Shown one piece after another: positions 2,151 to 60,214 of a DNA stretch of 64,000 bases (positions are counted from its first letter, which is position 1; each line of letters begins with the position of its first letter). A program made the position numbers and the translations under genes. A model generated the notes under the pieces. That model saw only the letters and a list, made by a program, of their open reading frames with translations, did no database searches and was not told the DNA's origin. Origin of the DNA: Nocardioidaceae bacterium (GTDB lineage: Bacteria > Actinomycetota > Actinomycetes > Propionibacteriales > Nocardioidaceae); assembly GCA_040002845.1 (NCBI GenBank), contig JBDUDR010000001.1, positions 8,678 through 72,677 of the forward strand, read 5' to 3'.

Positions 2151-3280
2151 GAGCCGTGACAAGGCCCGTCGACGATTCCGGCGACAACCTGGCTGCGGAC
2201 GTGGACGTCTACAGCGACGAGCCGCCGCAGGGCCTGGTGGATGCGTACGCCAGCGGCGACGAGCGTGTGGTGGATGCGGCACTGCGACCGCGTTCGCTGG
2301 CAGAGGTCATCGGTCAGGAACGAGTCCGGGCTCAGCTGTCGCTGGTGCTCGAGGCGGCTCGCGCCCGAGCCGGCAGCCCTGATCACGTGTTGCTGTCCGG
2401 ACCTCCCGGCCTCGGCAAAACGACATTGGCCATGATCATTGCCCACGAGATGAACGCTCCGCTGCGGGTCACCTCCGGACCTGCGATCCAGCACGCCGGC
2501 GACCTCGCGGCGATCTTGTCCGGGCTGGCCGAAGGTGAGGTGCTCTTCCTCGACGAGATCCATCGCATGAGCCGGCCCGCCGAGGAGATGCTCTACATGG
2601 CGATGGAGGACTTCCGGGTCGACGTGGTGGTGGGCAAGGGACCGGGAGCGACGGCGATCCCCCTGGAGATTCCGACCTTCACGTTGGTCGGTGCCACCAC
2701 CAGGGCCGGATTGCTCCCGGGACCGCTGCGCGACAGGTTCGGCTTCACAGCACGCCTGGAGTTCTACGAGCCGGGCGAGTTGGAACGCATCGTCAACCGA
2801 TCGGCTGCCCTGCTCGAGGTCGACGCCCGCCCCGACGGAGCTGCCGAGATAGCGTCCAGATCGCGAGGAACACCGCGGATCGCCAACCGCCTGCTGCGAC
2901 GGGTCCGCGACTATGCCCAGGTGCGCGCTGACGGGGTTGTTGACAGGCGCATCGCCCGCGCGGCCCTGGAGCTGTACGAAGTAGACGACTCGGGGCTGGA
3001 CCGGCTTGACCGGGCGGTCCTCGATGCGCTGTGCCGGCGGTTCGGCGGCGGCCCCGTCGGGTTGTCGACTCTCGCCGTCGCGGTCGGTGAGGAGCGCGAG
3101 ACTGTGGAAGAGGTGGCCGAACCCTTCCTGGTCCGCATCGGCATGCTCGCGCGGACGCCGCGGGGCCGGGTTGCGACGCCGGCCGCATGGCACCATCTCG
3201 GGATGGCAGTCCCCCCTGCAGCGGTGTTCAGCGATCAGGCGAGTCTGTTCGGTGAAGCGGCTGACAACTCTGACGAATGA
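2147..3280 (+). CDS. ruvB: Holliday junction branch migration ATPase RuvB
   Basis: GTG 2147 overlaps the ruvA stop. Walker [17 protein letters not shown] and [16 protein letters not shown] are present. Confidence 0.95.
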
Positions 3281-3445: not shown

Positions 3446-3763
3446 ATGACTGGTTCCGCGTGGGAGTCCTTGATTCCCCTCGTCCTCATCGTGCTTGTGT
3501 TCTGGATCTTTGTCGTGCGTCCTGCCCGCAGACGTCAGGTCGCGACCGCCGCCATGCAGTCGAAGCTGCGGGTGGGTGCCGAGGTCTTGCTGACCAGTGG
3601 CATATACGGCCGGGTCAACTCCTTGGATGAAGAATCCCTGCAGCTGGCGGTTGCCCCGGGGGTCATGCTGAAGGTGCACCGCCAAGCCGTGATGAACCTG
3701 GTCGACTCCGACCACCTGGACCCCGGCTCGGAGCCCGACGAGAGTTCCCAGGGAGACCGCTGA
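3446..3763 (+). CDS. yajC: preprotein translocase subunit YajC
   Basis: ORF 3374..3763. ATG 3446 follows GGAGCAGGGGAG. One TM helix is followed by RRQ...GAEVLLTSGIYGRV. The gene lies directly upstream of secDF. Confidence 0.8.
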   Translation: MTGSAWESLIPLVLIVLVFWIFVVRPARRRQVATAAMQSKLRVGAEVLLTSGIYGRVNSLDEESLQLAVAPGVMLKVHRQAVMNLVDSDHLDPGSEPDESSQGDR

Positions 3764-3765
3764 TC

Positions 3766-5646
3766 GTGGCAACCCGACCGTCCCGACCGGGACGTACTCT
3801 CATCATCTTCTTTCTCGCGGTGGCCGCCATGTATGCCGGCGTCATCGCTGCCGGCAGCTGGGCACCCAGACTCGGGCTCGACCTGCAAGGTGGCACCCGG
3901 ATCACCTTGTCGGCGAGCACCCAAGGGGGGAACGGCGGCGTCACGCCGGCGAAGATGAGCGAGGCGGTGAACATCATCCGCAACCGTGTCAACGGGACCG
4001 GCGTCACCGAGGCAGAAGTCACGACGCAGGGCGGCAGCAACATCATCGTCGAGATCCCCGGGCAGCAGCGAAAGGACATCGTCGACGAGGTGGGGAAGAC
4101 GGCTCAGTTGCGCTTCCGGCTGGTCGCGCCGTTCGCCGATGGCACCCCAAACCCGGTTGCGGGCGTGGACCTGACCCAACCGACGACCACGGGTTCTGCC
4201 ACCGGCTCGCCGACCGGTCCCACCACAGGCGCACCCTCGGGGGGCTCGACTGGCCCGTCCTCGGGAGGGTCCACCAGCCAGCCCTCCGGAGGCTCCAACG
4301 GGCAGCCCTCGGGATGGTCGACCGCACAGCCTTCGGGTGGCGGTACGCCGTCTCCTTCGCCGCCGCAGCCCGCCAGCCCGACCAGCGGTTCCACCTCGAA
4401 GCCGACCCACGGGTCCACCGCTCCGTCGGGTGGGTCGACCACTCCGTCGGCTGGGTCGAGCACTCCGTCGGGCGGGTCGACCACGGCGCCCGGCCAGGTG
4501 GTCCTGCCGCCGAAAACCCCCATCGACGATCCCGAGTCCTGGCAACCCGACCAAGCCTGGGAGCAGGCGTTCCTCACGTTCATCTGCCCTAAGAACGGCA
4601 CCACGTCCAAATACTCGGTGGACGACCCGACGCAGCCCATGTTGGCTTGTGACGACAAGGCGCAGAAGTTCCTCCTCGGGCCCGCGATCATCGAGGGCAC
4701 CCAGATCAACAGCGCCAGCGCCAGTATCCCCCAGAACCAGATCAACTGGTCGGTCCAGCTGAGCTTCGACAGTTCGGCTCGAAGCACGTTCGGCCGGGTG
4801 ACGACCATGCTGGACGACCAGCAGGGGTCCGGTCCCTATCGCGGCGGTCAGTTCGCGATCGTCCTCGACAGCCAGGTCATCTCGTACGCGGGAGTCAACG
4901 AGCCGATTCTCAACGGTTCCGCCGAGATCACCGGAAACTTCGACCAGCAGTCGGCGCAATCGCTGGCTAACTCGTTGAAGTACGGCGCGCTGCCGCTGAC
5001 CTTCCGCACCGAGTCGGTGGACGAAGAAGGTCCCGAGCTGGCTTCTGATCAGCTCAGGGCCGGGATCATCGCGGGCATCATCGGCCTGCTGCTGGTGGTC
5101 GCGTACTGCCTCATGTACTACCGCGGACTTGGCCTGGTCGTCATCTCTTCCCTGATCGTCGCCGGCGGGATCACGTACGCCTTGGTGTTGCTGCTGGGTT
5201 CGTGGATCGGCTTCACGCTGACCCTTCCGGGCATCGCGGGCCTGATCGTGGCAATTGGCATCACGGCCGACTCGTTCATCGTCTACTTCGAACGTCTCCG
5301 AGACGAGGTGCGCGGTGGCCGGACCTTGCGTACAGCCGTGGAGGCGGGCTGGGTGCGGGCTCGGTTGACGATCCTGGCCGCCGATGCCGTCTCGTTCCTC
5401 GCGGCGCTGATCCTCTATATCTTCGCGATCGGCGTGGTGAAGGGCTTCGCGTTCGCGCTCGGCCTGACAACGCTCGTCGACGTGGTGATCGTGTTCTCGT
5501 TCACCAAGCCGGTCGTCACCCTGCTGGCACGCACCAAGTTCTTCGGCGACGGTCACAAGTTCAGCGGCCTCGACTCCAAGCACCTGGGCGTGGATCGCCT
5601 GCCTGCCTTGCGGGGGCGGCGCCGTCCGGCCGGGGGGGAAGCCTGA
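3766..5646 (+). CDS. secD: protein translocase subunit SecD
   Basis: GTG 3766 lies 3 nt after the yajC stop. It has the GLDLQGG motif and a C-terminal multi-TM SecD/SecF domain, plus a P/S/T/G-rich insert at residues ~138-243. Confidence 0.9.
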   Translation: MATRPSRPGRTLIIFFLAVAAMYAGVIAAGSWAPRLGLDLQGGTRITLSASTQGGNGGVTPAKMSEAVNIIRNRVNGTGVTEAEVTTQGGSNIIVEIPGQQRKDIVDEVGKTAQLRFRLVAPFADGTPNPVAGVDLTQPTTTGSATGSPTGPTTGAPSGGSTGPSSGGSTSQPSGGSNGQPSGWSTAQPSGGGTPSPSPPQPASPTSGSTSKPTHGSTAPSGGSTTPSAGSSTPSGGSTTAPGQVVLPPKTPIDDPESWQPDQAWEQAFLTFICPKNGTTSKYSVDDPTQPMLACDDKAQKFLLGPAIIEGTQINSASASIPQNQINWSVQLSFDSSARSTFGRVTTMLDDQQGSGPYRGGQFAIVLDSQVISYAGVNEPILNGSAEITGNFDQQSAQSLANSLKYGALPLTFRTESVDEEGPELASDQLRAGIIAGIIGLLLVVAYCLMYYRGLGLVVISSLIVAGGITYALVLLLGSWIGFTLTLPGIAGLIVAIGITADSFIVYFERLRDEVRGGRTLRTAVEAGWVRARLTILAADAVSFLAALILYIFAIGVVKGFAFALGLTTLVDVVIVFSFTKPVVTLLARTKFFGDGHKFSGLDSKHLGVDRLPALRGRRRPAGGEA

Positions 5647-7422: not shown

Positions 7423-9900
7423 TTGGCAGACGATCCGGTAGGCTCCGCCACCGTTGAATCCCATCCGGCAGCGGTGGATACTGACGTGTCCTCGATCGAT
7501 GGCAAGGAGTCCGGCGAACCCGCAGACGTAGCCGAACAGACCCCCTCGGACGGTGCCCGGACCCCTCGACAAACCCCACCTCGCGTCGGCGCCGAGGGCT
7601 CTCGTGGCGCTGCGGCGGCAGGCGAGACACAGGCGGTCCCGTCCACCCGGATGCGCGCCAGGTTGGCGCGGTTGGGCAGTCGGCCGATTGCGCCGAACCC
7701 GGAGCTCGAGCCGCTGTTCCGGGTCTTGAAGACGACTCACCCAAAGGCCGATCTCGCTGTCGTCGAGCGCGCCTACCGCACCGCCGAGCGGTTCCACCGG
7801 ACTCAGCGGCGCAACAGCGGAGACCCGTTCATCACTCATCCGCTGGCGGTCGCGACCATTCTGGCCGAGCTCGGGATGACGCCTCCCACGCTGTGCGCCG
7901 CGCTGCTGCACGACACCGTGGAGGACACCCCGTACACCCTCGACCAGCTACGCGCCGACTTCGGCGACGAGGTCACCCAGCTTGTCGACGGCGTGACCAA
8001 GCTCGACAAGGTCAAGTACGGCGATGCCGCTCAGGCCGAGACGATCCGCAAGATGGTCGTTGCGATGAGCAAGGACATCCGCGTTCTGGTCATCAAGCTG
8101 GCCGACCGGCTGCACAACATGCGAACGCTCCGCTACAACAAGCCCGAGAAGCAGCAGCGGACGGCCGAGGAGACCTTGCAGATCTACGCACCGCTGGCGC
8201 ACCGCCTCGGCATGAACACGTTGAAGTGGGAGCTCGAGGATCTGGCGTTCGCGACCCTGCACCCCAAGGTCTACGACGAGATCGTCCGGCTGGTGGCCGA
8301 GCGTGCCCCCTCACGAGACGAGTTCCTCGCCGAGGTTGTCGAGCAGGTCCAAGGTGACCTGCGGTCGTCGAAGGTCAAGGCCACGGTCACCGGCAGGCCC
8401 AAGCACTACTACTCCATCTACCAGAAGATGATCGTTCGCGGCCGCGACTTCACCGACATCTACGACCTGGTCGGCATCCGGATCCTGGTCGAGTCGGTCC
8501 GGGACTGCTATGCCGTCCTGGGCGTACTGCACTCGAGGTGGAACCCGGTGCCGGGACGATTCAAGGACTTCGTCGCGATGCCGAAGTTCAACCTCTATCA
8601 GTCGCTGCACACCACTGTGATGGGTCCACAGGGCAAGCCGGTCGAGATGCAGATCCGGACGTTCGGAATGCACCGTCGAGCCGAATACGGCATCGCCTCG
8701 CACTGGAAGTACAAGGAGGACTCCAACGCCGGCGTCGACACGGAGCGGTCGCTGGCCGGGGAGATGACCGGTTCCCAAGGGGACATGACCTGGCTGAAGC
8801 AGCTGCTCGACTGGCAGCGCGAGACCGAGGACCCCGGAGAGTTCTTGGAGTCGCTGCGCTTCGAGATCGATTCCGACGAAGTCTACGTCTTCACACCCCG
8901 TGGCGACGTGATCGCGTTGCCTTCCGAGGCCACGCCCATCGACTTCGCGTACGCCATCCACACCGAGGTCGGTCACCGGACGATCGGCGCCCGGGTCAAC
9001 GGCCGGCTGGTGCCGTTGGAGAGCGCGCTGGACAACGGCGATGTCGTCGAGGTGTTCACGAGCAAGGCACAGGGCGCCGGTCCGAGCCGCGACTGGCTGA
9101 CGTTCGTCAAGAGCGCGCGCGCCCGCAACAAGATCAAGCAGTGGTTCACCAAGGAGCGTCGCGAGGAGGCGATCGAGCAAGGCAAGGACGCCATCGCGCG
9201 ACTCATGCGCAAAGAAGGTTTGCCGCTGCAGCGGCTGCTGACCCATGAGTCGCTGGCCGCCGTTGCCGACGAGCTGCGCCACTTCGATGTGTCCGCTCTG
9301 TACGCAGCCGTGGGCGAGGGAAACATCAGCGCACAGACGGTCGTACGCCGGATCATCGACCTGTTCGGCGGCGAGGAGGGGGCGACCGAGGATCTCGCCG
9401 AGGCCATCCACGTCACGAGCGAGCGTGATCGGCTCAAGCGTTCACCGCGCGCGGACGCCGGTGTGATCGTCAAGGGCGTGACCGACGTGTGGGTCAAGCT
9501 GGCGCGTTGCTGCACGCCGGTGCCGGGTGACGAGATTCTCGGGTTCGTCACGCACGGATCAGGGGTGTCCGTCCACCGGGTGGACTGCAGCAACGTCCGT
9601 AACCTGCGTGATCAGCCCGACCGGCTGGTCGAGGTCGAGTGGGCGCCGACTGCACAGAGCATGTTCCTGGTGGCCATGCAGGTCGAGGCGCTCGACCGCA
9701 GCAGGCTGTTGTCGGACATCACCCGGGTCTTGTCCGACCAACATGTGAACATCTTGTCCGCATCTGTGACGACGAGCCGCGAGCGCATCGCTATCAGCCG
9801 CTTTACGTTCGAGATGGGTGACACCAAGCACCTGGGTCACGTAATCAAGGCCGTATGCGGGGTCGACGGCGTCTTCGACGCTTACCGCGTCACCCAATAA
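7423..9900 (+). CDS. rel: bifunctional (p)ppGpp synthetase/hydrolase (RelA/SpoT family)
   Basis: TTG 7423 follows CCAGGAGAG. HD hydrolase (HDTVEDT), synthetase (YQSLHTTV), TGS and C-terminal ACT regions are all present. 825 aa. Confidence 0.95.
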
Positions 9901-9968
9901 CCGCGATCCGACACTTATTCCGCGCGATCCGACAGTTATTCGCCGGCATCCGACACTTATTTCGCGCG
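9901..9968 (+). repeat. array of three 21-bp tandem units (consensus GCGCGATCCGACACTTATTCN), starting right after the rel stop
   Basis: Read directly: CCGCGATCCGACACTTATTC / CGCGCGATCCGACAGTTATTC / GCCGGCATCCGACACTTATTTC. The same unit recurs at 10996-11058, 35861-35922 and 38669-38753. Confidence 0.95.
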
Positions 9969-9998
9969 TCGTAGTGCGCATGGGCTGACGTGCCATGG

Positions 9999-10916
9999 TC
10001 ACCACACTCTCGGACGTAGCGAGTCGACACCAAGGAGCTGCGCGACCTCCTCCTCCAGTGTTGGTTCAGCACCCATCACGGACGCGCTGTCGCACGTGAC
10101 CAGGCGCCAGTCGAACTCCCTCCTGAGACGCTCCCGCCGACTTTCGTCATGAGCTTCGTCTTGCTCGGCAGTGTGGAACTGCCGTCCGTCAAACTCGACG
10201 CCGACTCGGACCGCTTCGTAACCCATGTCGATCCGCGCCACGAGCTTTCCGTGCCGATCAAGGATCTCGACCTGGGGCTTGGGGCGGGGGAGTCCCGCAT
10301 CCACGAGGCGGAGGAAGGTCCAAGACTCACCGTGCGACTCGCGAGCCGGATCGACCATCATCACGAGTTCGCGGGCCTGACGTATTCCTGGGTGCCCCGC
10401 CAGCTGCGCGATCCGCTTTCGAATTGCGCTCAGGTCAATGAGTTCCGCCCTGGCCATCGCGTCTACCGACGACAACGCGAACGGTCGTCGCTGAAATCTC
10501 AACAAATCGACCGCAGTGCGATCTGGGATCGTGACCCGAATGCCATTGACGGTCGTGACATCGTCGGCATTGATCTTCGACTCGACCGTTCTGACACCTG
10601 GACGTCGCTGTCTCGACCAATGGTGTGGGACTGCGCACTCAGGTATCAGCAGACTTCTCCTCTCGGGTTCGTACGCATCGACTCCCCAGATCCACGCCGC
10701 CGTCGAACCCCAGATGACTGCATGTACGGGGCAAGCCAAAGAGAGCGCGAGACACCGAAGTTCACGAGAGTCGACGACTCCCGGGTCGACGTAGATGCCC
10801 CGGAGCACCCGTCGCAGCTGCCCGTCGTGAACGAGCACCGGAAGGTGTTTCGCGGGTATGCCAAGCGAGCTGGCTCGACTCGAAAGGAACGGGATGCCTT
10901 CATTTATCAGCGACAT
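9999..10916 (-). CDS. hypothetical protein with N-terminal AbiEi_4-like wHTH region and C-terminal DUF559 (Vsr-like endonuclease fold) region
   Basis: ORF 9999..10964; the ATG ending at 10916 (MSLINEG) is preferred. N-terminal ...GQLRRVLRGIYVDP..., C-terminal PRPKPQVEI...RIDMGYEAVRVGVEFDGRQFH. G+C is visibly lower than in neighbouring genes. Confidence 0.75.
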   Translation of the reverse strand: MSLINEGIPFLSSRASSLGIPAKHLPVLVHDGQLRRVLRGIYVDPGVVDSRELRCLALSLACPVHAVIWGSTAAWIWGVDAYEPERRSLLIPECAVPHHWSRQRRPGVRTVESKINADDVTTVNGIRVTIPDRTAVDLLRFQRRPFALSSVDAMARAELIDLSAIRKRIAQLAGHPGIRQARELVMMVDPARESHGESWTFLRLVDAGLPRPKPQVEILDRHGKLVARIDMGYEAVRVGVEFDGRQFHTAEQDEAHDESRRERLRREFDWRLVTCDSASVMGAEPTLEEEVAQLLGVDSLRPRVW

Positions 10917-10995
10917 GGCGAACACCCTGCCCGCATCCGGCAAGGCGCGTCGCCCGTTGTCCACAGGAGTGGCGGCGTTGTGCGCTGGCTTCCGG

Positions 10996-11058
10996 GGAAT
11001 TAAGTGTCGGATCGCGTGGAATAAGTGTCGGATCGCGCCGAATAAGTGTCGGATCGCG
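10996..11058 (-). repeat. array of three 21-bp tandem units (reverse orientation on + strand), 3 nt after the stop of the - strand DUF349 gene
   Basis: Read directly: GGAATTAAGTGTCGGATCGCG / TGGAATAAGTGTCGGATCGCG / CCGAATAAGTGTCGGATCGCG, the reverse complement of the unit at 9901-9968. Confidence 0.95.
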
Positions 11059-11061
11059 GGT

Positions 11062-12360
11062 TTACGCGGGGGGATCGGCCGGGGGTTCGCCGGGCGGCGT
11101 CACGGGGGAGAACTCGTCGAGCGCGAGACGGGCCTGCGTGAGCCAGGTGCGCCGAGCCTCAAGTGCTTCCGCAGCGGCGGCGACCGTGTCTGGGTCCCCC
11201 TCGGCGTGGGCCGCCGCGAGGTCTTCTTCGAGGCCTTCGATCAACGACTCGAGCTGTCCGACGGTCCCTTCCGCACGGGCTCTTGCTTCCGGGTTGCTCC
11301 GTCGCCAGGTGTCCTGCTCGGCTGCCCGGATCGCATCCTCTACCTTGCGCAGCCTGCCCTCCAGGCTCTTCATCTGAGCGCGCGGCACCTTGCCCGCGGC
11401 GTCCCACCGATCACCGATCGAGCGAAAAGCCTCCCGCGCGCGGCGAGGATCGGTGATCGGCAGCAACGACTCCGCCTGTTCCAGCAGGGACACCTTCTGT
11501 TCGGCGTTCGTTGCGAGCTCCTTGTCCAGCTCGGCATTGACTGTGTCGCGTGCACTGAAGAACCGGTCCTGAGCTGTCCGGAACCGGGTCCAGAGCTTGT
11601 CGTCGACATCCTTGTGGGCACGACCCGCCCCCTTCCACTCCCGCATCAGGTCGCGGTAGCGCCTGGCGGTCGCTGACCAGTCGGTCGATCCGGCGAGTGA
11701 CTCCGCCTCCCTGACCAGGCGCTCCTTGATGGCCTGCGACCCTTCACGCTGCTCGTTCAGCTCGACGAAGTGCTGCTTGCGCCGACGGGTGTACGTCGTT
11801 CGGGCAGTCGAAAATCGTCGCCAGAGCATGTCGTCAGTGGACTTGTCGAGACGCGGCAGCGCCTTCCAGAGATCGAGCAGCTCACGCAGCCGGTTGGCGC
11901 CCGCCCGCCAGTCCTGACTCTCAGACAGGTTCTCGGCCTCGACGGCAATCGCCTCCTTGCGTTCGCGAGCCTCCTCCAGCTTCTTGCTGCGATCGGCGCG
12001 GCGGCGTTCTCGCGCGGCGGCGATGGCGGGTCGCAACGCATCGAGTCGGTCCGAGAGCGCGTCGAGGTCTCCCACAGCGTGAGCATCGGCGACCTGGCCG
12101 CGCACCTTGTTCACCGCCGCAGCAGCGTCGTCGGGCCCGAGATGTCCCTCGTGGATCCGCTGCTCGAGCAGTCGAACCTCCGTCTCCAGCGAGTCGAACC
12201 GGCGGCGAAAGAACGCGAGTGCTTCGGTGGCGTCTCCGTCCGGCCATTGACCCACCGCGCGCTCGCCTGCCTTGGTGCGTACATAGACGGTGCCGTCCTC
12301 GGCCACCCGCCCGAACGAGTCGCCAGGCGACGCCTCTACGGGGCCGGGATCGGCCGTCAC
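11062..12360 (-). CDS. DUF349 domain-containing protein
   Basis: GTG start at 12360. Reiterated helical units (LWRRFSTAR, LWTRFRTAQDRFF, IGDRWDAAG) are typical of DUF349 proteins encoded near rel/hisS in actinobacteria. Confidence 0.8.
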   Translation of the reverse strand: MTADPGPVEASPGDSFGRVAEDGTVYVRTKAGERAVGQWPDGDATEALAFFRRRFDSLETEVRLLEQRIHEGHLGPDDAAAAVNKVRGQVADAHAVGDLDALSDRLDALRPAIAAARERRRADRSKKLEEARERKEAIAVEAENLSESQDWRAGANRLRELLDLWKALPRLDKSTDDMLWRRFSTARTTYTRRRKQHFVELNEQREGSQAIKERLVREAESLAGSTDWSATARRYRDLMREWKGAGRAHKDVDDKLWTRFRTAQDRFFSARDTVNAELDKELATNAEQKVSLLEQAESLLPITDPRRAREAFRSIGDRWDAAGKVPRAQMKSLEGRLRKVEDAIRAAEQDTWRRSNPEARARAEGTVGQLESLIEGLEEDLAAAHAEGDPDTVAAAAEALEARRTWLTQARLALDEFSPVTPPGEPPADPPA

Positions 12361-35433: not shown

Positions 35434-35922
35434 GTGCTCGTACTCGTCCTGAACGGTCCCAACCTCGGCCGTCTCGGTGCCCGCGAACCGGAGGTCTACG
35501 GCACTACAACGTACGACGAGCTGGCCGACGTGCTCAGGCTGACCGGCCAGGCGCTCGGAATGAAGGTGGAGGTCCGGCAGACCGACGACGAGTCGGAGCT
35601 GGTGGGCTGGCTCCATGAAGCCGCCGACGCGGCCACCCCGGTCGTGCTCAACCCGGCGGCGTTCACCCACTACTCGTACGCCCTGCGCGACGCCTGCGCT
35701 CAGCTGACGGCGCCGCTGATCGAGGTGCACCTGACGAACCCCGCGGCGAGAGAGACGTTCAGGCACACGAGCGTGGTCAGCGGGGTAGCCACCGGAACGA
35801 TCGCGGGATTCGGCGTGGAGTCGTACCGGTTGGCTCTGGAGGCCGTGAGCCGGGTTGTCTCCGCGCGATCCGACACTTATTCGGCGCGATCCGACACTTA
35901 TTCCCCGCCATCCGACACTTAG
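35434..35922 (+). CDS. aroQ: type II 3-dehydroquinate dehydratase with a repeat-encoded C-terminal tail
   Basis: [20 protein letters not shown] and IEVHLTNP motifs. The last 20 codons ([20 protein letters not shown]) are encoded by the 21-bp repeat array. Confidence 0.9.
35861..35922 (+). repeat. array of three 21-bp tandem units overlapping the 3' end of aroQ
   Basis: CCGCGCGATCCGACACTTATTC / GGCGCGATCCGACACTTATTC / CCCGCCATCCGACACTTAG read directly. Confidence 0.95.
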
Positions 35923-35933
35923 ACCGCCAGCCC

Positions 35934-36458
35934 TCATCGGCCGACTAGAGATCGTGCGGTCTTCTGGGCGTCGAGAATGCCAATCCTGAGCTCGTCGCAG
36001 AGCAGGCGTACCGCCGAGACTTCCTGGCGCTTGTTCATCAACGTGACTACCCTCGCCGCCAGCTCTGGCGGCACTTGGGCGATCTTGGGACTCAGCATGT
36101 CCAGCGGGCTGGGCGGCTCGAGCGGCTCGCCAGCCGACACTGCTTCAACCTCGACGGGCGCGGCGCTTGTCGGCCGAGGCGCTTGAGGCGCCGGCGCGGG
36201 CGGCGGCTGGGCTTGTGCCCGGGTCCGCCCCTGGGCTGCTGCGCCGGATCGCCTGGTGGGTTGCGGAGGGGCAGGCGCCGGGGGGCTCTCGATCACCCTG
36301 CGGCCGCCCTCAGGGGTGTCGACCACGATGAGACGACGACCCTTGGGTCCGCTGAGGACGCGAGGCACGGGGTGGCCAGGCCGCGAGCGGCTCCGCGCGT
36401 TGAGCCGCGTCGCGATCATGATCACGGCAATGACGGCGCACAGGAGCAGGAATCCCAC
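35934..36458 (-). CDS. hypothetical membrane-anchored protein with Pro/Ala-rich linker
   Basis: N-terminal TM helix (FLLLCAVIAVIMIA), PAPAP-rich linker and a ~45-aa helical C-terminal region tentatively resembling an L7/L12-CTD-like fold. Position and orientation between aroQ and pepQ match a conserved actinobacterial membrane protein. Confidence 0.55.
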   Translation of the reverse strand: MGFLLLCAVIAVIMIATRLNARSRSRPGHPVPRVLSGPKGRRLIVVDTPEGGRRVIESPPAPAPPQPTRRSGAAAQGRTRAQAQPPPAPAPQAPRPTSAAPVEVEAVSAGEPLEPPSPLDMLSPKIAQVPPELAARVVTLMNKRQEVSAVRLLCDELRIGILDAQKTARSLVGR

Positions 36459-37657: not shown

Positions 37658-38221
37658 ATGGCAACGACCAATGAGCTGAAGAACGGGATGGTGCTCAACC
37701 TCGACGGCCAGCTGTGGTCAGTCGTGTGGTTCCAGCACCACAAGCCGGGCAAGGGTGGCGCCGTCGTGCGTACCAAGCTGAAGAACGTGCTCTCGGGCAA
37801 GACGGTTGACAAGACTTTCAACGCAGACGTGAAGGTAGATACCGCCAACGTCGACAAGCGCTCGATGACCTACCTGTACAACGACGGGTCGTCCTATGTA
37901 TTCATGGACACCGAGACCTATGACCAGGTCCACGTGCAAGAGGACGTCATCGCAGAAGCTGCTCCCTTCATGCTCGAGAGCCAGCAAGTCATCGTCGCCG
38001 TCCACGAAGGTACGCCGCTGTACATCGAGCTGCCTGCGTCGGTGGAGATGACGGTCGAGTACACCGAACCCGGGCTGCAGGGGGACCGCTCGACCGGGGG
38101 CACCAAGCCTGCCAGGTTGGAGACGGGGTACGAGATCTCCGTACCACTGTTCATCGTGACCGGGGAACGGATCAAAGTGGACACCCGGGATGGCAGCTAC
38201 CTTGGTCGCGTGTCTGCCTGA
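37658..38221 (+). CDS. efp: elongation factor P
   Basis: ORF 37532..38221 is 5'-extended. ATG 37658 gives [28 protein letters not shown] is present. Confidence 0.95.
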
Positions 38222-38640
38222 TGGCAGCGCGATCCAGGGCCCGCAAGCGAGCGCTGGACATCTTGTTCGAGAGCGAGCTGCGAAGCATGCCTGCGGGTGG
38301 TTCGTTGGCCGATCGGCTGACGGATCCTGCCCAGCAGCTGAATCCCTACACCATCACCCTGGTCGAGGGGGTCGGGGAGCATCGCGAACGCCTGGACGAC
38401 CTGGTCAGCGAGTACTCCCTAGGCTGGGCCCTGGAGCGAATGCCGGTGGTGGATCGCAACCTGCTTCGCATCGGGTTGTTCGAGATGCTCTACTGCGACG
38501 AGGTGCCGGACGCCGTGGCAATCTCCGAAGCCGTGAAGCTGGCTCGTGAGCTGTCCACCGACGAGTCTCCAGCCTTCGTCAACGGAATCCTGGGTCGAAT
38601 CGCCGAGCTGAAGCCGACCCTGCTCTCGCCAGACGATTGA
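38221..38640 (+). CDS. nusB: transcription antitermination factor NusB
   Basis: ATG 38221 overlaps the efp TGA. ARKRALDILFESE and VAISEAVKLAREL motifs are present. Confidence 0.9.
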   Translation: MAARSRARKRALDILFESELRSMPAGGSLADRLTDPAQQLNPYTITLVEGVGEHRERLDDLVSEYSLGWALERMPVVDRNLLRIGLFEMLYCDEVPDAVAISEAVKLARELSTDESPAFVNGILGRIAELKPTLLSPDD

Positions 38641-38668: not shown

Positions 38669-38753
38669 GGGAACACGTGTCGGATCGCGCGAAATAAGTG
38701 TCGGATGGCGGCGAATAAGTGTCGGATCGCGCGGAATAAGTGTCGGATCGTGG
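38669..38753 (-). repeat. array of four 21-bp tandem units (reverse orientation on + strand), within 8 nt of the stop of - strand bldD
   Basis: GGGAACACGTGTCGGATCGCGC / GAAATAAGTGTCGGATGGCGGC / GAATAAGTGTCGGATCGCGCG / GAATAAGTGTCGGATCGTGG read directly. Confidence 0.95.
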
Positions 38754-38758
38754 AGGGG

Positions 38759-39256
38759 TTACTCCTCTTCGCCGGACCGACGGTCGTTGCTGTTGAGTAC
38801 GCCCCAGGCGACGAAGCGCTGGGCCAGCAGGCTGGGTGGCTCGTCGAAGATGACAGCGAGTGTCCGCATGTCGTCCTGCCGGATGGACAGCACCCGGCCG
38901 TTGTAGTCACCGCGTTGGGCCTGGATGGTGGCGGCATACCGGGCCAGCGGGGCCACCTCGGGGGCGTCGAGCGACTGGAGTCGCTCGAGGTCAAGCACCA
39001 GCCGTGGCGGCGGCTCCGCCGTCGCGCCGAACTGCACGCGGCCGGGCAGCAGCTCATGGACGGGGACGCCGTAGAACTCGGCCAGCTCGGACAGCCGCTG
39101 CACCGTGACGGCGCGGTCGCCGCGCTCGTATGACCCGACCACGACCGCCTTCCAGCGACCGTCGGATTTCTCCTCGACTCCATGCAGCGACAGGTTCTGC
39201 TGCTGCCGGATGGATCGAAGCCGGGCGCCAAGGGCCCGAGCGTACTCGTTGCTCAT
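38759..39256 (-). CDS. bldD: BldD-family XRE-type developmental transcriptional regulator
   Basis: ORF 38759..39352; the ATG ending at 39256 gives MSNEYARALGARLRSIRQQQNLSLHGVEEKSDGRWKAVVVGSYERGDRAVTV. By recall this is near-identical in pattern to Streptomyces BldD. The C-terminal RGD-x8-RQDD motif is retained. Confidence 0.85.
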   Translation of the reverse strand: MSNEYARALGARLRSIRQQQNLSLHGVEEKSDGRWKAVVVGSYERGDRAVTVQRLSELAEFYGVPVHELLPGRVQFGATAEPPPRLVLDLERLQSLDAPEVAPLARYAATIQAQRGDYNGRVLSIRQDDMRTLAVIFDEPPSLLAQRFVAWGVLNSNDRRSGEEE

Positions 39257-39460
39257 GGTGACGTCCTTCCGGCCGGGATGGGGCTTTGCAGGCTCATTCA
39301 CGGCGTTTCGACTACGGAGAGTGATCGTATCTCTGACAGGGCTCCGGGTCAAGCGGTACCTGTCGATTCGGGGAGTGTCGTGGTCGCCCCGATCGCGGAA
39401 ACGCCGAGGTCAGGTGCCGAAAGAACGCACGCGGGCTGGTACTGTCATCGGTGACCGACA

Positions 39461-60019: not shown

Positions 60020-60157
60020 CTCGCGTGCTCCGGGGTCGGTGAAACTCCGAACCGGCGGTGATAGTCCGCGACCCGGTCGTGACACGTCTGTCGTGACCGG
60101 TTGACCTGGCGAAATTCCAGGACCGACGGTCAAAGTCCGGATGGGAGGATGCACGCG
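60020..60157 (+). promoter_or_regulatory. FMN riboswitch (RFN element)
   Basis: Conserved cores GGGGUCGGUGAAACUCCGAACCGGCGGUGAUAGUCCGCGACC and GACCUGGCGAAAUUCCAGGACCGACGGUCAAAGUCCGGAUGGGAG, with P1 CGUGC/GCACG. It lies upstream of ribD. Confidence 0.9.
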
Positions 60158-60214
60158 GCGATGTGGCCGTCGTCCTGCGTCGGGCCGGTGGGAACCCACC
60201 GACAGCGCACGACG

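What the first reader, a model, noticed from the sequence alone, without database searches (positions are those of the whole stretch)
9901..9968. Dispersed 21-bp tandem-repeat arrays that abut stop codons, always sense-oriented to the gene they follow (4 loci, 13 units)
Four intergenic loci carry head-to-tail arrays of one 21-bp unit, consensus 5'-GCGCGATCCGACACTTATTCN-3'. The loci are 9901-9968 (3 units, +), 10996-11058 (3 units, -), 35861-35922 (3 units, +) and 38669-38753 (4 units, -). The core ATCCGACACTTAT is nearly invariant. Three arrays share the same internal order: two GCGCGATCC...TTATTC units followed by a variant GCCGSCATCC...TTATTTC or TTAG unit. So the ~65-bp triplet, not the single unit, looks like the dispersed entity. 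Every array is in sense orientation to the gene ending beside it and starts 0-8 nt after that stop codon. For rel the TAA is at 9898-9900 and the array starts at 9901. For the DUF349 gene (- strand) the TAA is at 11064-11062 and the array runs from 11058 downward. For bldD (- strand) the TAA is at 38761-38759 and the array runs from ~38753 downward. For aroQ the array is fused into the ORF. The unit is not self-complementary, so it forms no hairpin. It is AT-richer than its surroundings, and on the sense strand it has C8 G4 A4 T5 (C:G = 2:1). The period of 21 bp equals two helical turns or seven codons. There are no spacers, so it is not CRISPR. I do not recognise it as a described repeat family. 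By inference it is a strand-specific 3'-end module. It could be a portable C-rich/G-poor Rho-utilisation-like tract in a genome largely lacking U-tract terminators. It could be a reiterated platform for an RNA- or DNA-binding protein. Or it could be the footprint of an element that targets stop-codon-proximal sites.
Basis: partly seen in the sequence, partly recalled or inferred. Interest (0 to 1): 0.78.

Follow-up and report, generated by a model that had tools for sequence, protein, structure and literature searches.

The report
Repeat arrays belonging to a nuclease gene
The 21-bp repeat arrays are real, and they appear to be the recognition sites of a DNA-binding nuclease gene that two of them bracket; copies without the gene have spread to the ends of many other genes in an uncultured soil actinobacterial lineage, a repeat-plus-enzyme partnership not found in the literature searched.

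Summary
The window has 13 units in 4 arrays at the stated coordinates (0.36 expected by chance) and no degenerate copies.

"Always sense to the gene it follows" is overstated. The rule is automatic in convergent gaps, which is 3 of the 4 window loci. Across 140 independent loci from relatives the informative bias is only about 2:1.

This ORF encodes an AbiEi-type winged-helix domain fused to a Vsr/EDxHD-type endonuclease.

In 8 of 8 loci carrying a homologue (100-40% identity, five genomic contexts), the gene is bracketed from stop codon to stop codon by inward-pointing arrays of 21-33-bp units. The core sequence changes with the protein: ATCCGACAC, ATCCGTCAC, CCGGGTCAC, GGCGTGTCAC.

The aroQ and bldD arrays are gene-less "orphan" copies. 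Orphans persist at orthologous sites while 4-fold sites fall to 54-67% identity. Their cores stay 39/39 identical, unit number varies among strains (2-5), and their linkers are genome-specific.

Best reading: a REP/RAYT-like partnership between a repeat and an enzyme, using a different enzyme and a tandem rather than palindromic repeat. Binding, cleavage and spread are inferred. A co-opted terminator or insulator role is not excluded.

The parts
9901..9968 (+). Array A. It has 3 units of 21 bp (9901-9921, 9922-9942, 9943-9963) plus a partial tail. It starts directly after the rel stop (TAA 9898-9900). It is the inverted end of the cassette lying 3' of the enclosed gene, and it points inward.
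   Evidence: inverted match to 10997-11059 with 89% complementarity over 63 nt
9999..10964 (-). Enclosed gene of 321 aa (probably about 305 aa from a later start). It has an AbiEi-type winged-helix DNA-binding domain, an AbiEi C-domain and a C-terminal Vsr/EDxHD-like endonuclease. It is the candidate cognate protein of the arrays. There is no AbiEii toxin partner next to it.
   Evidence: Pfam AbiEi_1 E=9e-7; MTES_1575 E=1e-4, which is below the curated cut-off. PADLOC AbiEi E=7e-18. PDB profile hits 3r3p (I-Bth0305I) E=0.011 and 3hrl. AF2 model pLDDT 89.8. Foldseek 6y8q AbiEi E=2.7e-7; C-terminal domain against 3r3p_B TM 0.71. D245, E256 and D272 are invariant; D258, H263, R275, R276 and W285 are nearly invariant. 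GC3 is 0.69 against about 0.8-0.86 in neighbouring genes. Codon-position identity to L264 is 0.93/0.94/0.70, which indicates purifying selection.
10957..10967 (+). TTGTCCACAGG, which reads CCTGTGGACAA on the gene's strand. This motif recurs between the upstream array and the start of the gene in most lineages. It resembles a DnaA box. It overlaps the GTG of the longest ORF.
   Evidence: read; significance not tested
10996..11058 (-). Array B. It has 3 units (10997-11017, 11018-11038, 11039-11059). It lies 2-4 nt after the DUF349 stop (TAA 11062-11064, - strand). It is 32 nt upstream of the longest ORF of the enclosed gene and co-oriented with that gene.
35861..35922 (+). Orphan array of 3 units (35863-35925), translated as the C-terminal tail of AroQ, (SARSDTY)n. 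The stop TAG at 35920-35922 comes from the last unit.
   Evidence: Relative L255 keeps its own stop TAG followed by one unit, so the tail in the window arose by stop loss, TAG to TCC. One strain has 2 units and a 155-aa AroQ.
38669..38753 (-). Orphan array of 4 units (38670-38753), 5 nt after the bldD stop (TAA 38759-38761, - strand). It lies in the convergent gap with nusB, which ends at 38640.
   Evidence: Closely related strains have 3, 4 or 5 units. The array is present with identical cores in L255.

Best explanation
The arrays are the cognate DNA repeats of a small cassette whose gene lies between the first two arrays.

The gene (9999-10964, - strand) encodes an AbiEi-type winged-helix DNA-binding module fused to a Vsr/EDxHD-type endonuclease. 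In every lineage sampled this gene sits in a convergent gap. It is bracketed from the neighbour's stop codon to the other neighbour's stop codon by two inward-pointing arrays of 2-5 tandem units. Each array is preceded by a C-rich leader. The conserved core of the units changes together with the protein.

Inferred mechanism:
1. The winged helix reads the 13-bp core (CG-ATCCGACAC-TT-R-T).
2. The 21-bp period, two helical turns, stacks bound protomers on one face of the DNA.
3. The upstream array probably also serves as the gene's operator, as in AbiEi autoregulation.
4. The nuclease nicks or cuts at arrays. Repair from other arrays would then homogenise linkers and change unit number.

In the window's lineage the end arrays have been copied without the gene to many other gene-end gaps, either singly or as inward-pointing pairs. 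The aroQ and bldD arrays are such orphans.

On this reading the orientation rule is geometric. The outer, best-conserved end of an array faces the flanking stop codon. It is not a transcript-level rule.

Shown here: the anatomy, the gene-array association, the co-variation, conservation under saturated divergence, unit-number polymorphism, and genome-specific linkers.

Inferred, not shown: binding, cleavage, and the mechanism of spread.
For: 1. Association. 8 of 8 loci with a homologue have array, gene, inverted array running from stop codon to stop codon. These are the window, L264 (87% identity), L015 (57%), L259 (51%), L260 Solicola (46%), L262 Antricoccus (46%), L261 Mumia (41%) and L263 Kribbella (40%). 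In the five most distant loci TRF found intergenic arrays of period 15 or more only in the two gaps flanking the gene.

2. Co-variation of the core: ATCCGACAC(TTAT), 21 bp, in the window, L264 and L015; ATCCGTCAC, 22 and 21 bp, in L259 and L262; GATCCG(C/T)C, 22 bp, in L260; CCGGGTCAC, 21 bp, in L261; GGCGTGTCAC plus CATCGGAC..CTTGTGAC, 33 bp, in L263.

3. Five different genomic contexts, which implies relocation.

4. Protein architecture: AbiEi DNA-binding fold plus Vsr/I-Bth0305I-like nuclease, with conserved acidic and histidine residues. AbiEi-family proteins bind repeats in their own promoters (PMC7319586). 3r3p is the catalytic domain of a homing endonuclease (PMC3239194).

5. The gene is under purifying selection. 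Among about 150 array loci only the rel locus carries it.

6. Orphans are old but constrained. Between the window and L255 or L015, 4-fold sites are 54-67% identical. The cores are 39/39 identical between the window and L255 at the bldD array, and differ at 3 of 39 positions between the window and L015 at the rel array. Linkers diverged. ATCCGACA is invariant in about 400 units, although up to 2 mismatches were allowed anywhere.

7. Linker consensus is genome-specific and is shared by the cassette flanks and the orphans: window TCCGCGCG, CAVOHB MAG TTCACGCG, JBKPNJ MAG CCGCCGCG.

8. 23 of 24 arrays lying within 3 kb of each other point inward, including cases where one member is not sense to any gene (L010, L023, L031). 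The spacers between them are unrelated.
Against: No whole genome could be scanned, so it is not shown that every genome with orphans has the gene, or that the gene is single-copy.

Orphans with the other cores (ATCCGTCAC and so on) were not looked for outside the fetched loci.

No target-site duplication or defined terminus was found.

Spacers of orphan pairs hold unrelated DNA, including housekeeping genes: pepQ-efp-nusB in the window and a thiolase gene in L031. Many pairs therefore cannot be simple transposons.

The MTES_1575 Pfam score is below its curated cut-off. The nuclease assignment rests on weak sequence hits plus fold similarity.

Core conservation estimates are inflated, because the loci were found with an exact-match pattern.

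My gene calls come from a home-made codon-usage caller.
Confidence: 0.55

Rival explanations
1. Domesticated boundary element. The protein is, or has become, a host DNA-binding factor. The orphan arrays, loaded with phased protomers, would act as roadblock terminators or insulators at operon ends and around insulated genes. On this reading they are retained because they benefit the host, not because they spread selfishly. This overlaps with the best explanation on who binds the arrays. It differs on why the arrays persist.
For: Arrays are enriched in convergent gaps: 32 of 84 with both neighbours called, against 70 of 410 gene pairs overall. They are depleted in divergent gaps, 5 of 84 against 67 of 410.

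In about half of the solo convergent gaps the array fills the whole gap.

The orthologous gaps in relatives without arrays (L256, L258) hold short GC-rich hairpins instead.

The arrays are conserved at orthologous sites over saturated divergence, and the window has no decayed relics.

Inward-pointing pairs bracket single genes: the AbiEi-like gene, a VOC gene and a thiolase gene.
Against: There are no expression or 3'-end data.

A conserved nuclease domain is unnecessary for a roadblock.

Avoidance of promoter-bearing gaps is common to most intergenic repeats.

Only two or three orthologous gaps were compared.
Confidence: 0.2
2. RNA-level 3'-end module. The sense transcript would be a C-rich, G-poor, unstructured Rho-loading tract. 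The TTATT(C/T) in each unit would act as a NusG-type TTNTTT pause signal on the non-template strand, independently of the enclosed protein.
For: On the sense strand C is about 0.5 and G about 0.2 in the 20 nt before the array, and linkers are C-biased.

Sense RNAs fold no better than shuffles, with z between -0.4 and +1.4; the exception is the bldD gap at -2.1.

No intrinsic terminators lie next to the arrays.

TTNTTT pausing by NusG is documented in Gram-positive bacteria including M. tuberculosis (PMC9963633).

The arrays sit at operon ends.
Against: Rho and NusG do not need a 13-nt invariant core.

The position after TTRTT is C in 67% of units and T in only 24-30%.

12 of 34 solo arrays in co-directional gaps are antisense and are also kept between relatives.

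The inward-pointing pair rule holds even where the sense rule fails.

The C-rich leader is also present at antisense arrays, so it belongs to the element.

This reading does not explain the association or the co-variation with the gene.
Confidence: 0.12
3. Ends of a conventional multi-site transposon of the Tn7, Mu or Tn552 type, mobilised by an unseen DDE transposase. On this reading the AbiEi-nuclease gene is only frequent cargo.
For: Several directly repeated binding sites of about 21-22 bp at each end, inverted between ends, is the end architecture of Tn7, Mu and Tn552 (from my own knowledge of those families). Insertion next to gene 3' ends recalls attTn7. Pair spacers are heterogeneous.
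Against: No transposase gene was seen in any of about 170 loci. No target-site duplication and no TG/CA termini were found. The repeat core co-varies with the enclosed protein across 100-40% identity, which is not expected of cargo. Some pairs enclose conserved housekeeping operons.
Confidence: 0.06
4. MIRU-like intercistronic repeats that couple translation of neighbouring genes, or locally born slippage repeats (VNTRs) with no common origin.
For: The period of 21 is 7 codons. All three sense frames are open. The aroQ ORF runs through an array. Unit number varies in whole units.
Against: Most arrays lie in convergent gaps with no downstream co-oriented ORF to couple to. The distance from stop to array is not frame-locked. 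Arrays at different loci are 96-97% identical, which rules out independent local birth.
Confidence: 0.03

Closest known systems
REP/REPIN sequences and their RAYT (REP-associated tyrosine transposase) genes
   Same: There is one enzyme gene per genome, bracketed by inverted copies of its own repeat. Many gene-less copies lie in extragenic gaps near gene 3' ends, often in convergent gaps. The copies persist at orthologous sites. The repeat sequence is specific to the lineage of the enzyme.
   Different: The enzyme here is an AbiEi winged helix fused to a Vsr/EDxHD-like nuclease, not an HUH Y1 transposase. The repeat is a tandem direct array of 21-33-bp non-palindromic units, not a hairpin-forming palindrome. 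No mobility mechanism is established.
AbiE type IV toxin-antitoxin system (AbiEi antitoxin / AbiEii toxin)
   Same: The N-terminal two domains match AbiEi by profile and by fold. AbiEi proteins bind repeated sequences in their own promoter (PMC7319586). An array lies just upstream of the gene here.
   Different: No AbiEii (DUF1814) toxin gene is adjacent; the neighbours are rel and DUF349. A nuclease domain is fused instead. The repeats are tandem arrays on both sides of the gene and are also dispersed through the genome.
EDxHD / Vsr-like homing endonucleases (I-Bth0305I) and DUF559 proteins
   Same: The C-terminal domain has the same fold (3r3p_B TM 0.71; profile E=0.011 to 3r3p; 3hrl; 1vsr), with conserved E-x-D...H...D residues.
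   Different: The gene is free-standing rather than inside an intron or intein. Its flanks are repeat arrays, not a split target gene. It is found in five different chromosomal contexts rather than at one homing site.
Mycobacterial interspersed repetitive units (MIRUs)
   Same: Both are actinobacterial. Both are short tandem units dispersed in intergenic gaps, polymorphic in unit number between strains, and placed in a fixed relation to the ends of neighbouring ORFs.
   Different: MIRU units are 40-100 bp. They sit between co-oriented cistrons and are thought to couple translation at start codons (PMC12548453). The arrays here favour convergent gaps and stop codons, and they have a candidate cognate protein.
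Plasmid iterons and multi-site transposon ends (Tn7-R, Mu, Tn552)
   Same: Directly repeated protein-binding sites of about 20-22 bp are phased at two helical turns. At the two ends of an element they are in inverted orientation.
   Different: No replication initiator or DDE transposase is present, no target-site duplication was found, and there are dozens of chromosomal copies at gene ends.

Membership tests
REP/REPIN-RAYT | Enzyme gene flanked by inverted copies of the dispersed repeat | tested here: met
   Arrays 9901-9968 (+) and 10996-11058 (-) bracket ORF 9999-10964. The same arrangement is found in 7 other homologue loci.
REP/REPIN-RAYT | Enzyme is an HUH Y1 (IS200/IS605-like) transposase | tested here: not met
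   Pfam, PADLOC, PDB profile and fold searches give AbiEi plus a Vsr-like nuclease.
REP/REPIN-RAYT | Repeat unit is an imperfect palindrome that forms a hairpin | tested here: not met
   The units are direct tandem repeats. Sense and antisense RNAs fold no better than shuffles.
AbiE toxin-antitoxin system | AbiEi-type antitoxin fold (wHTH plus C-domain) | tested here: met
   PADLOC AbiEi E=7e-18. Foldseek 6y8q E=2.7e-7.
AbiE toxin-antitoxin system | Bicistronic operon with an AbiEii (DUF1814 nucleotidyltransferase) toxin | tested here: not met
   The neighbours are rel and DUF349 in the window, L264, L259 and the P0123 contig (for which no DNA was retrieved); other housekeeping genes elsewhere. 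No DUF1814 gene was seen.
EDxHD/Vsr-like homing endonuclease | Vsr-like catalytic fold with conserved acidic and histidine residues | tested here: met
   3r3p profile E=0.011. 3r3p_B TM(target) 0.71, rmsd 3.8. E256 and D272 invariant; D258 and H263 nearly invariant. The sequence evidence is weak: Pfam MTES_1575 scores 22.5 bits against a cut-off of 38.2.
EDxHD/Vsr-like homing endonuclease | Resides in an intron or intein, or beside a cleavable empty allele | tested here: not met
   The gene is free-standing in convergent intergenic gaps.
MIRU | 40-100-bp units between co-oriented cistrons, with an internal ORF overlapping both neighbours | tested here: not met
   The unit is 21 bp. 32 of 84 arrays lie in convergent gaps. 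Spacing to the stop codon is not frame-locked.
CRISPR array | Repeats separated by unique spacers of similar length | tested here: not met
   Units abut each other. The 8-nt linker is a genome-specific consensus, not a set of unique spacers.
MITE / IS with terminal inverted repeats | Target-site duplication and conserved internal sequence between the inverted ends | tested here: not met
   No direct repeats are visible at the outer junctions of 23 pairs. Spacers are unrelated except at orthologous loci.
Rho-dependent terminator (rut site) | C-rich, G-poor, unstructured RNA of about 70-80 nt on the transcribed strand | tested here: inconclusive
   Composition and weak folding fit for sense arrays. 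However, a third of informative arrays are antisense, and a rut site needs no fixed sequence.
Rho-dependent terminator (rut site) | Rho-dependent 3' ends in vivo | not testable with these tools
   No transcriptome data are available for this uncultured lineage.
Any Rfam RNA family | Covariance-model match | tested here: not met
   No match at the arrays at gathering threshold or at E up to 10.

The most novel reading that the evidence does not exclude
A previously undescribed class of partnership between an enzyme and a repeat in Actinomycetota. A free-standing gene for an AbiEi winged helix fused to a Vsr/EDxHD nuclease maintains, homogenises and spreads arrays of its own tandem binding sites. 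It would do so by cutting the arrays and having them repaired from other arrays. The gene-less arrays, placed from stop codon to stop codon at operon ends, would then have been co-opted as protein-loaded terminators or insulators. This would be a REP/RAYT analogue built from entirely different parts. It could also suggest an origin for other actinobacterial interspersed tandem repeats.
Probability: 0.35. Interest if true: 0.85.

Novelty: new variant of a known kind. Interest (0 to 1): 0.74.

Why it matters
If the pairing is real, three things follow.

First, it assigns a DNA target to a widespread but uncharacterised actinobacterial protein architecture (AbiEi-like plus DUF559/Vsr-like nuclease, annotated as 'hypothetical' or 'DUF559').

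Second, it shows a second, independent route to a REP/RAYT-type system, in which one enzyme gene is partnered with many dispersed repeats.

Third, it makes the biology directly testable. The protein, its predicted 13-bp site and natural variant pairs (ATCCGACAC, ATCCGTCAC, CCGGGTCAC) are all defined, and some occur in cultured strains (Antricoccus suffuscus, Mumia, Solicola, Kribbella deserti).

It also explains a source of in-frame C-terminal protein tails (AroQ) and of strain-level unit-number polymorphism that could serve as a typing marker in soil Propionibacteriales-like populations.

Tried and rejected
- Rfam at gathering and permissive thresholds on the window and three related loci gave nothing at the arrays.

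- A viral-contig scan for the 14-mer gave only single scattered hits and no tandem matches.

- A literature search for the core sequence gave only primer coincidences for the 10-mers and nothing for the 12-mers. Searches for intergenic tandem repeats in Actinobacteria, for a 21-bp repeat in Nocardioides, for DUF559 with AbiEi, and for DUF559 with tandem repeats gave no relevant paper.

- MITE hypothesis. Spacers of 23 inward-pointing pairs were compared all against all, and only orthologous loci matched. Inner ORFs do not recur. No target-site duplications were seen.

- 'Decayed cassette' hypothesis for orphan pairs. tblastn with 81 homologues found the gene only in the window and L015.

- Promoter and terminator consensus scans around the arrays found nothing beyond shuffle expectation next to the arrays.

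- The two Dehalococcoidia hits of the genome scan are a 10-11-bp repeat (ATCCGACACTT) with its own conserved flanks. I judged them a probable coincidence and did not pursue them.

- I compared the motif from memory with PafBC/RecA-NDp, WhiA (GACAC), parS and the 16S 3' end. None matches beyond 5-6 nt. I did not test these.

- NCBIfam has no model for the protein.

- One look-up (P0123) returned gene calls but no DNA.
Full report
**1. The observation**

The core ATCCGACACTTAT, with up to 2 mismatches, occurs 13 times in the window. All 13 lie in four head-to-tail arrays of period 21, at 9901-9968 (+), 10996-11058 (-), 35861-35922 (+) and 38669-38753 (-). Dinucleotide shuffles give 0.36 matches. 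A 21-nt weight matrix built from about 530 related units finds these 13 sites (scores 24-37) and nothing else above the shuffle maximum of about 8, so the window holds no solo or decayed copies. Whole arrays at different loci are 96-97% identical over 58-68 nt. Pfam confirms the neighbours: rel 7423-9900, DUF349 11062-12360 (-), aroQ 35434-35922, nusB 38221-38640 and bldD 38759-39352 (-). The aroQ ORF runs through its array, ending ...[20 protein letters not shown]. Rfam has no match.

**2. Where the family occurs**

An exact tandem pattern was scanned against one genome per species. It hit two uncultured Actinomycetota MAGs (CAVOHB01 and JBKPNJ01) and, probably by coincidence, an 11-bp repeat in a Dehalococcoidia genome. 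A metagenome scan gave 120 short soil contigs. Identical BldD protein led to ten closely related strains. EF-P homologues led to more distant relatives. The nearest named ones are Nocardioidaceae and Propionibacteriales MAGs. The window itself is not from either MAG: rel is 81% identical in nucleotides to L015.

**3. The orientation claim**

I called genes with a codon-usage model trained on the long ORFs of these loci. I then collapsed arrays from orthologous loci, which left 140 independent arrays.
- The upstream gene is co-oriented in 85 and opposite in 29.
- The distance from its stop codon to the array has a median of about 8 nt.
- A typical junction reads STOP-CCGCG-ATCCGACAC.

'Sense to the gene it follows' is automatically true in a convergent gap, and three of the four window loci are convergent. 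In the informative cases the bias is modest. Solo arrays in co-directional gaps are 22 sense against 12 antisense. In solo convergent gaps the 5' end is nearer a stop in 14 against 7. Arrays are enriched in convergent gaps (32 of 84, against 70 of 410 gene pairs) and depleted in divergent gaps (5 of 84, against 67 of 410).

Stop codons next to arrays are richer in TAA and TAG: 44 TGA, 20 TAG and 13 TAA, against 268, 65 and 17 elsewhere (p=1e-4). Part of this is explained by stops that derive from the TTAT of a unit, as in aroQ.

**4. Anatomy of the units**

- Arrays have 2-6 units, with a mode of 3.
- The period is 21 in 249 of 265 intervals and 22 in 13.
- CG-ATCCGACA is invariant. Position 9 is C or G and position 12 is A or G.
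- The first (outer) unit is the best conserved and the last is the most degenerate.
- About 20 nt of C-rich, G-poor sequence precede the first unit, and this holds also at antisense arrays.
- Sense RNAs fold no better than shuffles.

**5. Age, constraint and dynamics**

The aroQ and bldD arrays are present in all ten close strains, but unit number differs: 3, 4 or 5 at bldD, and 3 or 2 at aroQ, the latter giving AroQ of 162 or 155 aa.

They are also present in L255 (EF-P 88% identical). There, 4-fold degenerate sites of bldD, nusB, efp and aroQ are only 54-67% identical to the window, yet the three bldD cores are 39/39 identical and the linkers differ. In L255 aroQ keeps its own TAG followed by a single unit. 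The window's AroQ tail therefore arose by stop loss, TAG to TCC.

The rel and DUF349 arrays are likewise shared with L015, where 4-fold identity is 0.54. Two relatives at 85% and 82% EF-P identity lack arrays at these gaps and have short GC hairpins there instead.

The linker consensus is genome-specific: window TCCGCGCG, CAVOHB TTCACGCG, JBKPNJ CCGCCGCG. Arrays within one genome are therefore homogenised even though their sites are older than the species. This is concerted evolution on top of a constrained core.

**6. The pair rule**

Of 24 cases where two arrays lie within 3 kb, 23 are + then -, that is, pointing inward. One is ++, and none points outward. About 19-20 of these are independent loci by my estimate, since a few are orthologous. 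The rule holds even where one member is not sense to any gene: L010 and L023 lie in co-directional gaps, and L031 brackets a thiolase gene. Spacers range from 136 to 2750 bp and are unrelated between loci. No inner ORF recurs, and no target-site duplication is visible.

**7. The key result**

The window's first two arrays are such a pair, and they bracket ORF 9999-10964 (-). The evidence on its protein is as follows.
- It matches AbiEi: Pfam AbiEi_1, and PADLOC E=7e-18.
- It matches a Vsr-type nuclease weakly by sequence: MTES_1575 below its cut-off, and PDB profile hits to the I-Bth0305I homing-endonuclease domain 3r3p (E=0.011) and the DUF559 protein 3hrl.
- An AlphaFold model from 35 homologues has pLDDT 89.8 and pTM 0.86.
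- Its best PDB match is S. agalactiae AbiEi (6y8q, E=2.7e-7).
- Its C-terminal domain superposes on 3r3p_B (TM 0.71) and on Vsr.
- D245, E256 and D272 are invariant, and D258, H263, R275, R276 and W285 are nearly so.
- No AbiEii toxin gene is adjacent.

I fetched the DNA around seven homologues (and L015). In all of them the gene lies in a convergent gap and is flanked on both sides, from the neighbour's stop codon inward, by a C-rich leader and an array of tandem units pointing at the gene:

| Locus | Identity to window protein | Units upstream + downstream | Unit or core |
|---|---|---|---|
| L264 | 87% | 2 + 2 | ATCCGACAC |
| L015 | 57% | 3 + 3 | ATCCGACAC |
| L259 | 51% | 4 + 4, 22 bp | CGATCCGTCACT / GGTCCGTCAGTTCC |
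| L262 Antricoccus | 46% | 5 + 4.7, 21 bp | CGATCCGTCAC(C/G)TATGT |
| L260 Solicola | 46% | degenerate, 22 bp | GATCCG(C/T)C |
| L261 Mumia | 41% | 2.9 + 2, 21 bp | CCCCGGGTCACCGTCTGCG |
| L263 Kribbella | 40% | 3.6 + 4, 33 bp | |

In the five most distant loci (L259-L263), TRF found no other intergenic array of period 15 or more. The genomic context differs in five ways: DUF349/rel, cysS-like/PAC2, crp/MBL, hydrolase/hypothetical, and DUF3180-region/nuoD. The gene is under purifying selection, with codon-position identity of 0.93/0.94/0.70 against L264. It has lower GC3 than its neighbours. Among about 150 array loci it occurs only at the rel locus.

**8. Interpretation**

A repeat that always brackets one gene family, and whose core changes with that family's sequence, is most simply that protein's recognition site. 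AbiEi proteins are known to bind repeats in their own promoters (PMC7319586), and the C-terminal fold is that of a homing endonuclease (PMC3239194).

I therefore read the four arrays as two cassette ends (9901-9968 and 10996-11058) and two gene-less orphan copies (aroQ and bldD) of a system that works like REP/RAYT. It is built from a winged-helix-nuclease fusion and tandem, two-turn-phased sites rather than an HUH transposase and palindromes.

Nuclease-induced breaks repaired from other arrays would account for the genome-specific linkers and for whole-unit gains and losses. On this view the 'orientation rule' is geometric: the outer end of an array faces the flanking stop codon.

Binding, cleavage and the way orphans reach new gaps are inferences. 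The absence of target-site duplications, and the housekeeping genes found between some pairs, argue against simple cut-and-paste transposition.

**9. Rivals**

- A host role as a protein-loaded terminator or insulator at operon ends is compatible with the same protein-site pairing. It is supported by the enrichment in convergent gaps, by the gaps filled entirely by arrays, and by hairpins at the array-free orthologous gaps.
- A purely RNA-level Rho/NusG module fits the C-rich, unstructured sense strand and the TTATT(C/T) motif (PMC9963633). It does not fit the invariant core, the antisense third, the pair rule or the gene association.
- A DDE transposon, MIRU-type coupling (PMC12548453) and local slippage are poorly supported.

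**10. Novelty**

The literature library holds no paper mentioning both DUF559 and AbiEi, nor the core sequence. The closest published parallels I found are REP/RAYT (from my own knowledge), MIRUs, and the intergenic TAACTGA heptamer repeats of Beggiatoaceae (PMC4679880). I rate the finding as a new variant of a known kind, an enzyme with its own dispersed repeats.

Noticed in passing
window 10957-10967; also L264 ~9995-10005, L015, L260 ~3462-3471, L261 ~3455-3463, L263 ~2808-2818, L262 ~2920-2950 (reversed, two copies): The motif CCTGTGGA(C/T)A, whose reverse complement TTGTCCACAGG resembles a high-GC DnaA box, recurs between the upstream array and the start of the AbiEi-nuclease gene in most lineages. 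In the window it overlaps the GTG of the longest ORF. It could be a promoter or operator element of the cassette.
   Followed up: partly
L021 297-599, L017 6261-6573, L019 4021-4334, L031 886-1199, L013 6178-6402, L024 3348-3549, L198: In the CAVOHB MAG many arrays continue into a second dispersed element of about 300 nt, 77-81% identical between copies. It ends in a hairpin of about 50 nt (TGCGCAGTTGTTGGTCACGG...CCGTGACCAACAACTGCGCA). It is absent from the window and has no Rfam match.
   Followed up: partly
L008 60-130 and 6820-6905; L009 5310-5400 (Dehalococcoidia chromosome OY282365.1): Arrays of 10-11-bp tandem repeats whose unit (ATCCGACACTT, or the variant CTATGCGACAC) equals the actinobacterial core. 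They lie between conserved flanks (CTCCACAAACCGCCCGCAGGACTCC ... CCCTCCCAGCTACGAA) in at least three copies. This is probably coincidence, but it is an unexplained element family in its own right.
   Followed up: partly
window 60021-60158 (+): FMN riboswitch (RF00050), 92.5 bits, full length.
   Followed up: no
window 35934-36458 (-): ORF of 174 aa with no Pfam match, convergent with aroQ and separated from the aroQ array by 11 nt. Its called length varies among relatives (103, 182 and 228 aa), and it is absent from the CAVOHB MAG, where aroQ overlaps pepQ.
   Followed up: partly
window 4234-4484 (inside ORF 3766-5646, +): In-frame coding tandem repeats of 24/48 bp and 21 bp (TRF scores 97-113) in a 626-aa protein. 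They are unrelated in sequence to the intergenic arrays.
   Followed up: no
L257 2374-2419 (CAVOHB MAG, between aroB and aroQ): In this species the shikimate operon carries an antisense array of 2 units between aroB and aroQ, instead of the array after aroQ seen in the window. Array positions within the same operon therefore differ between species.
   Followed up: partly
all array loci: Genes whose stop abuts an array use TAA 3.5 times more often than other genes in the same contigs (13 of 77 against 17 of 350). This is partly because stops are created from the TTAT of a unit. Whether it also reflects expression level or a target preference is open.
   Followed up: partly
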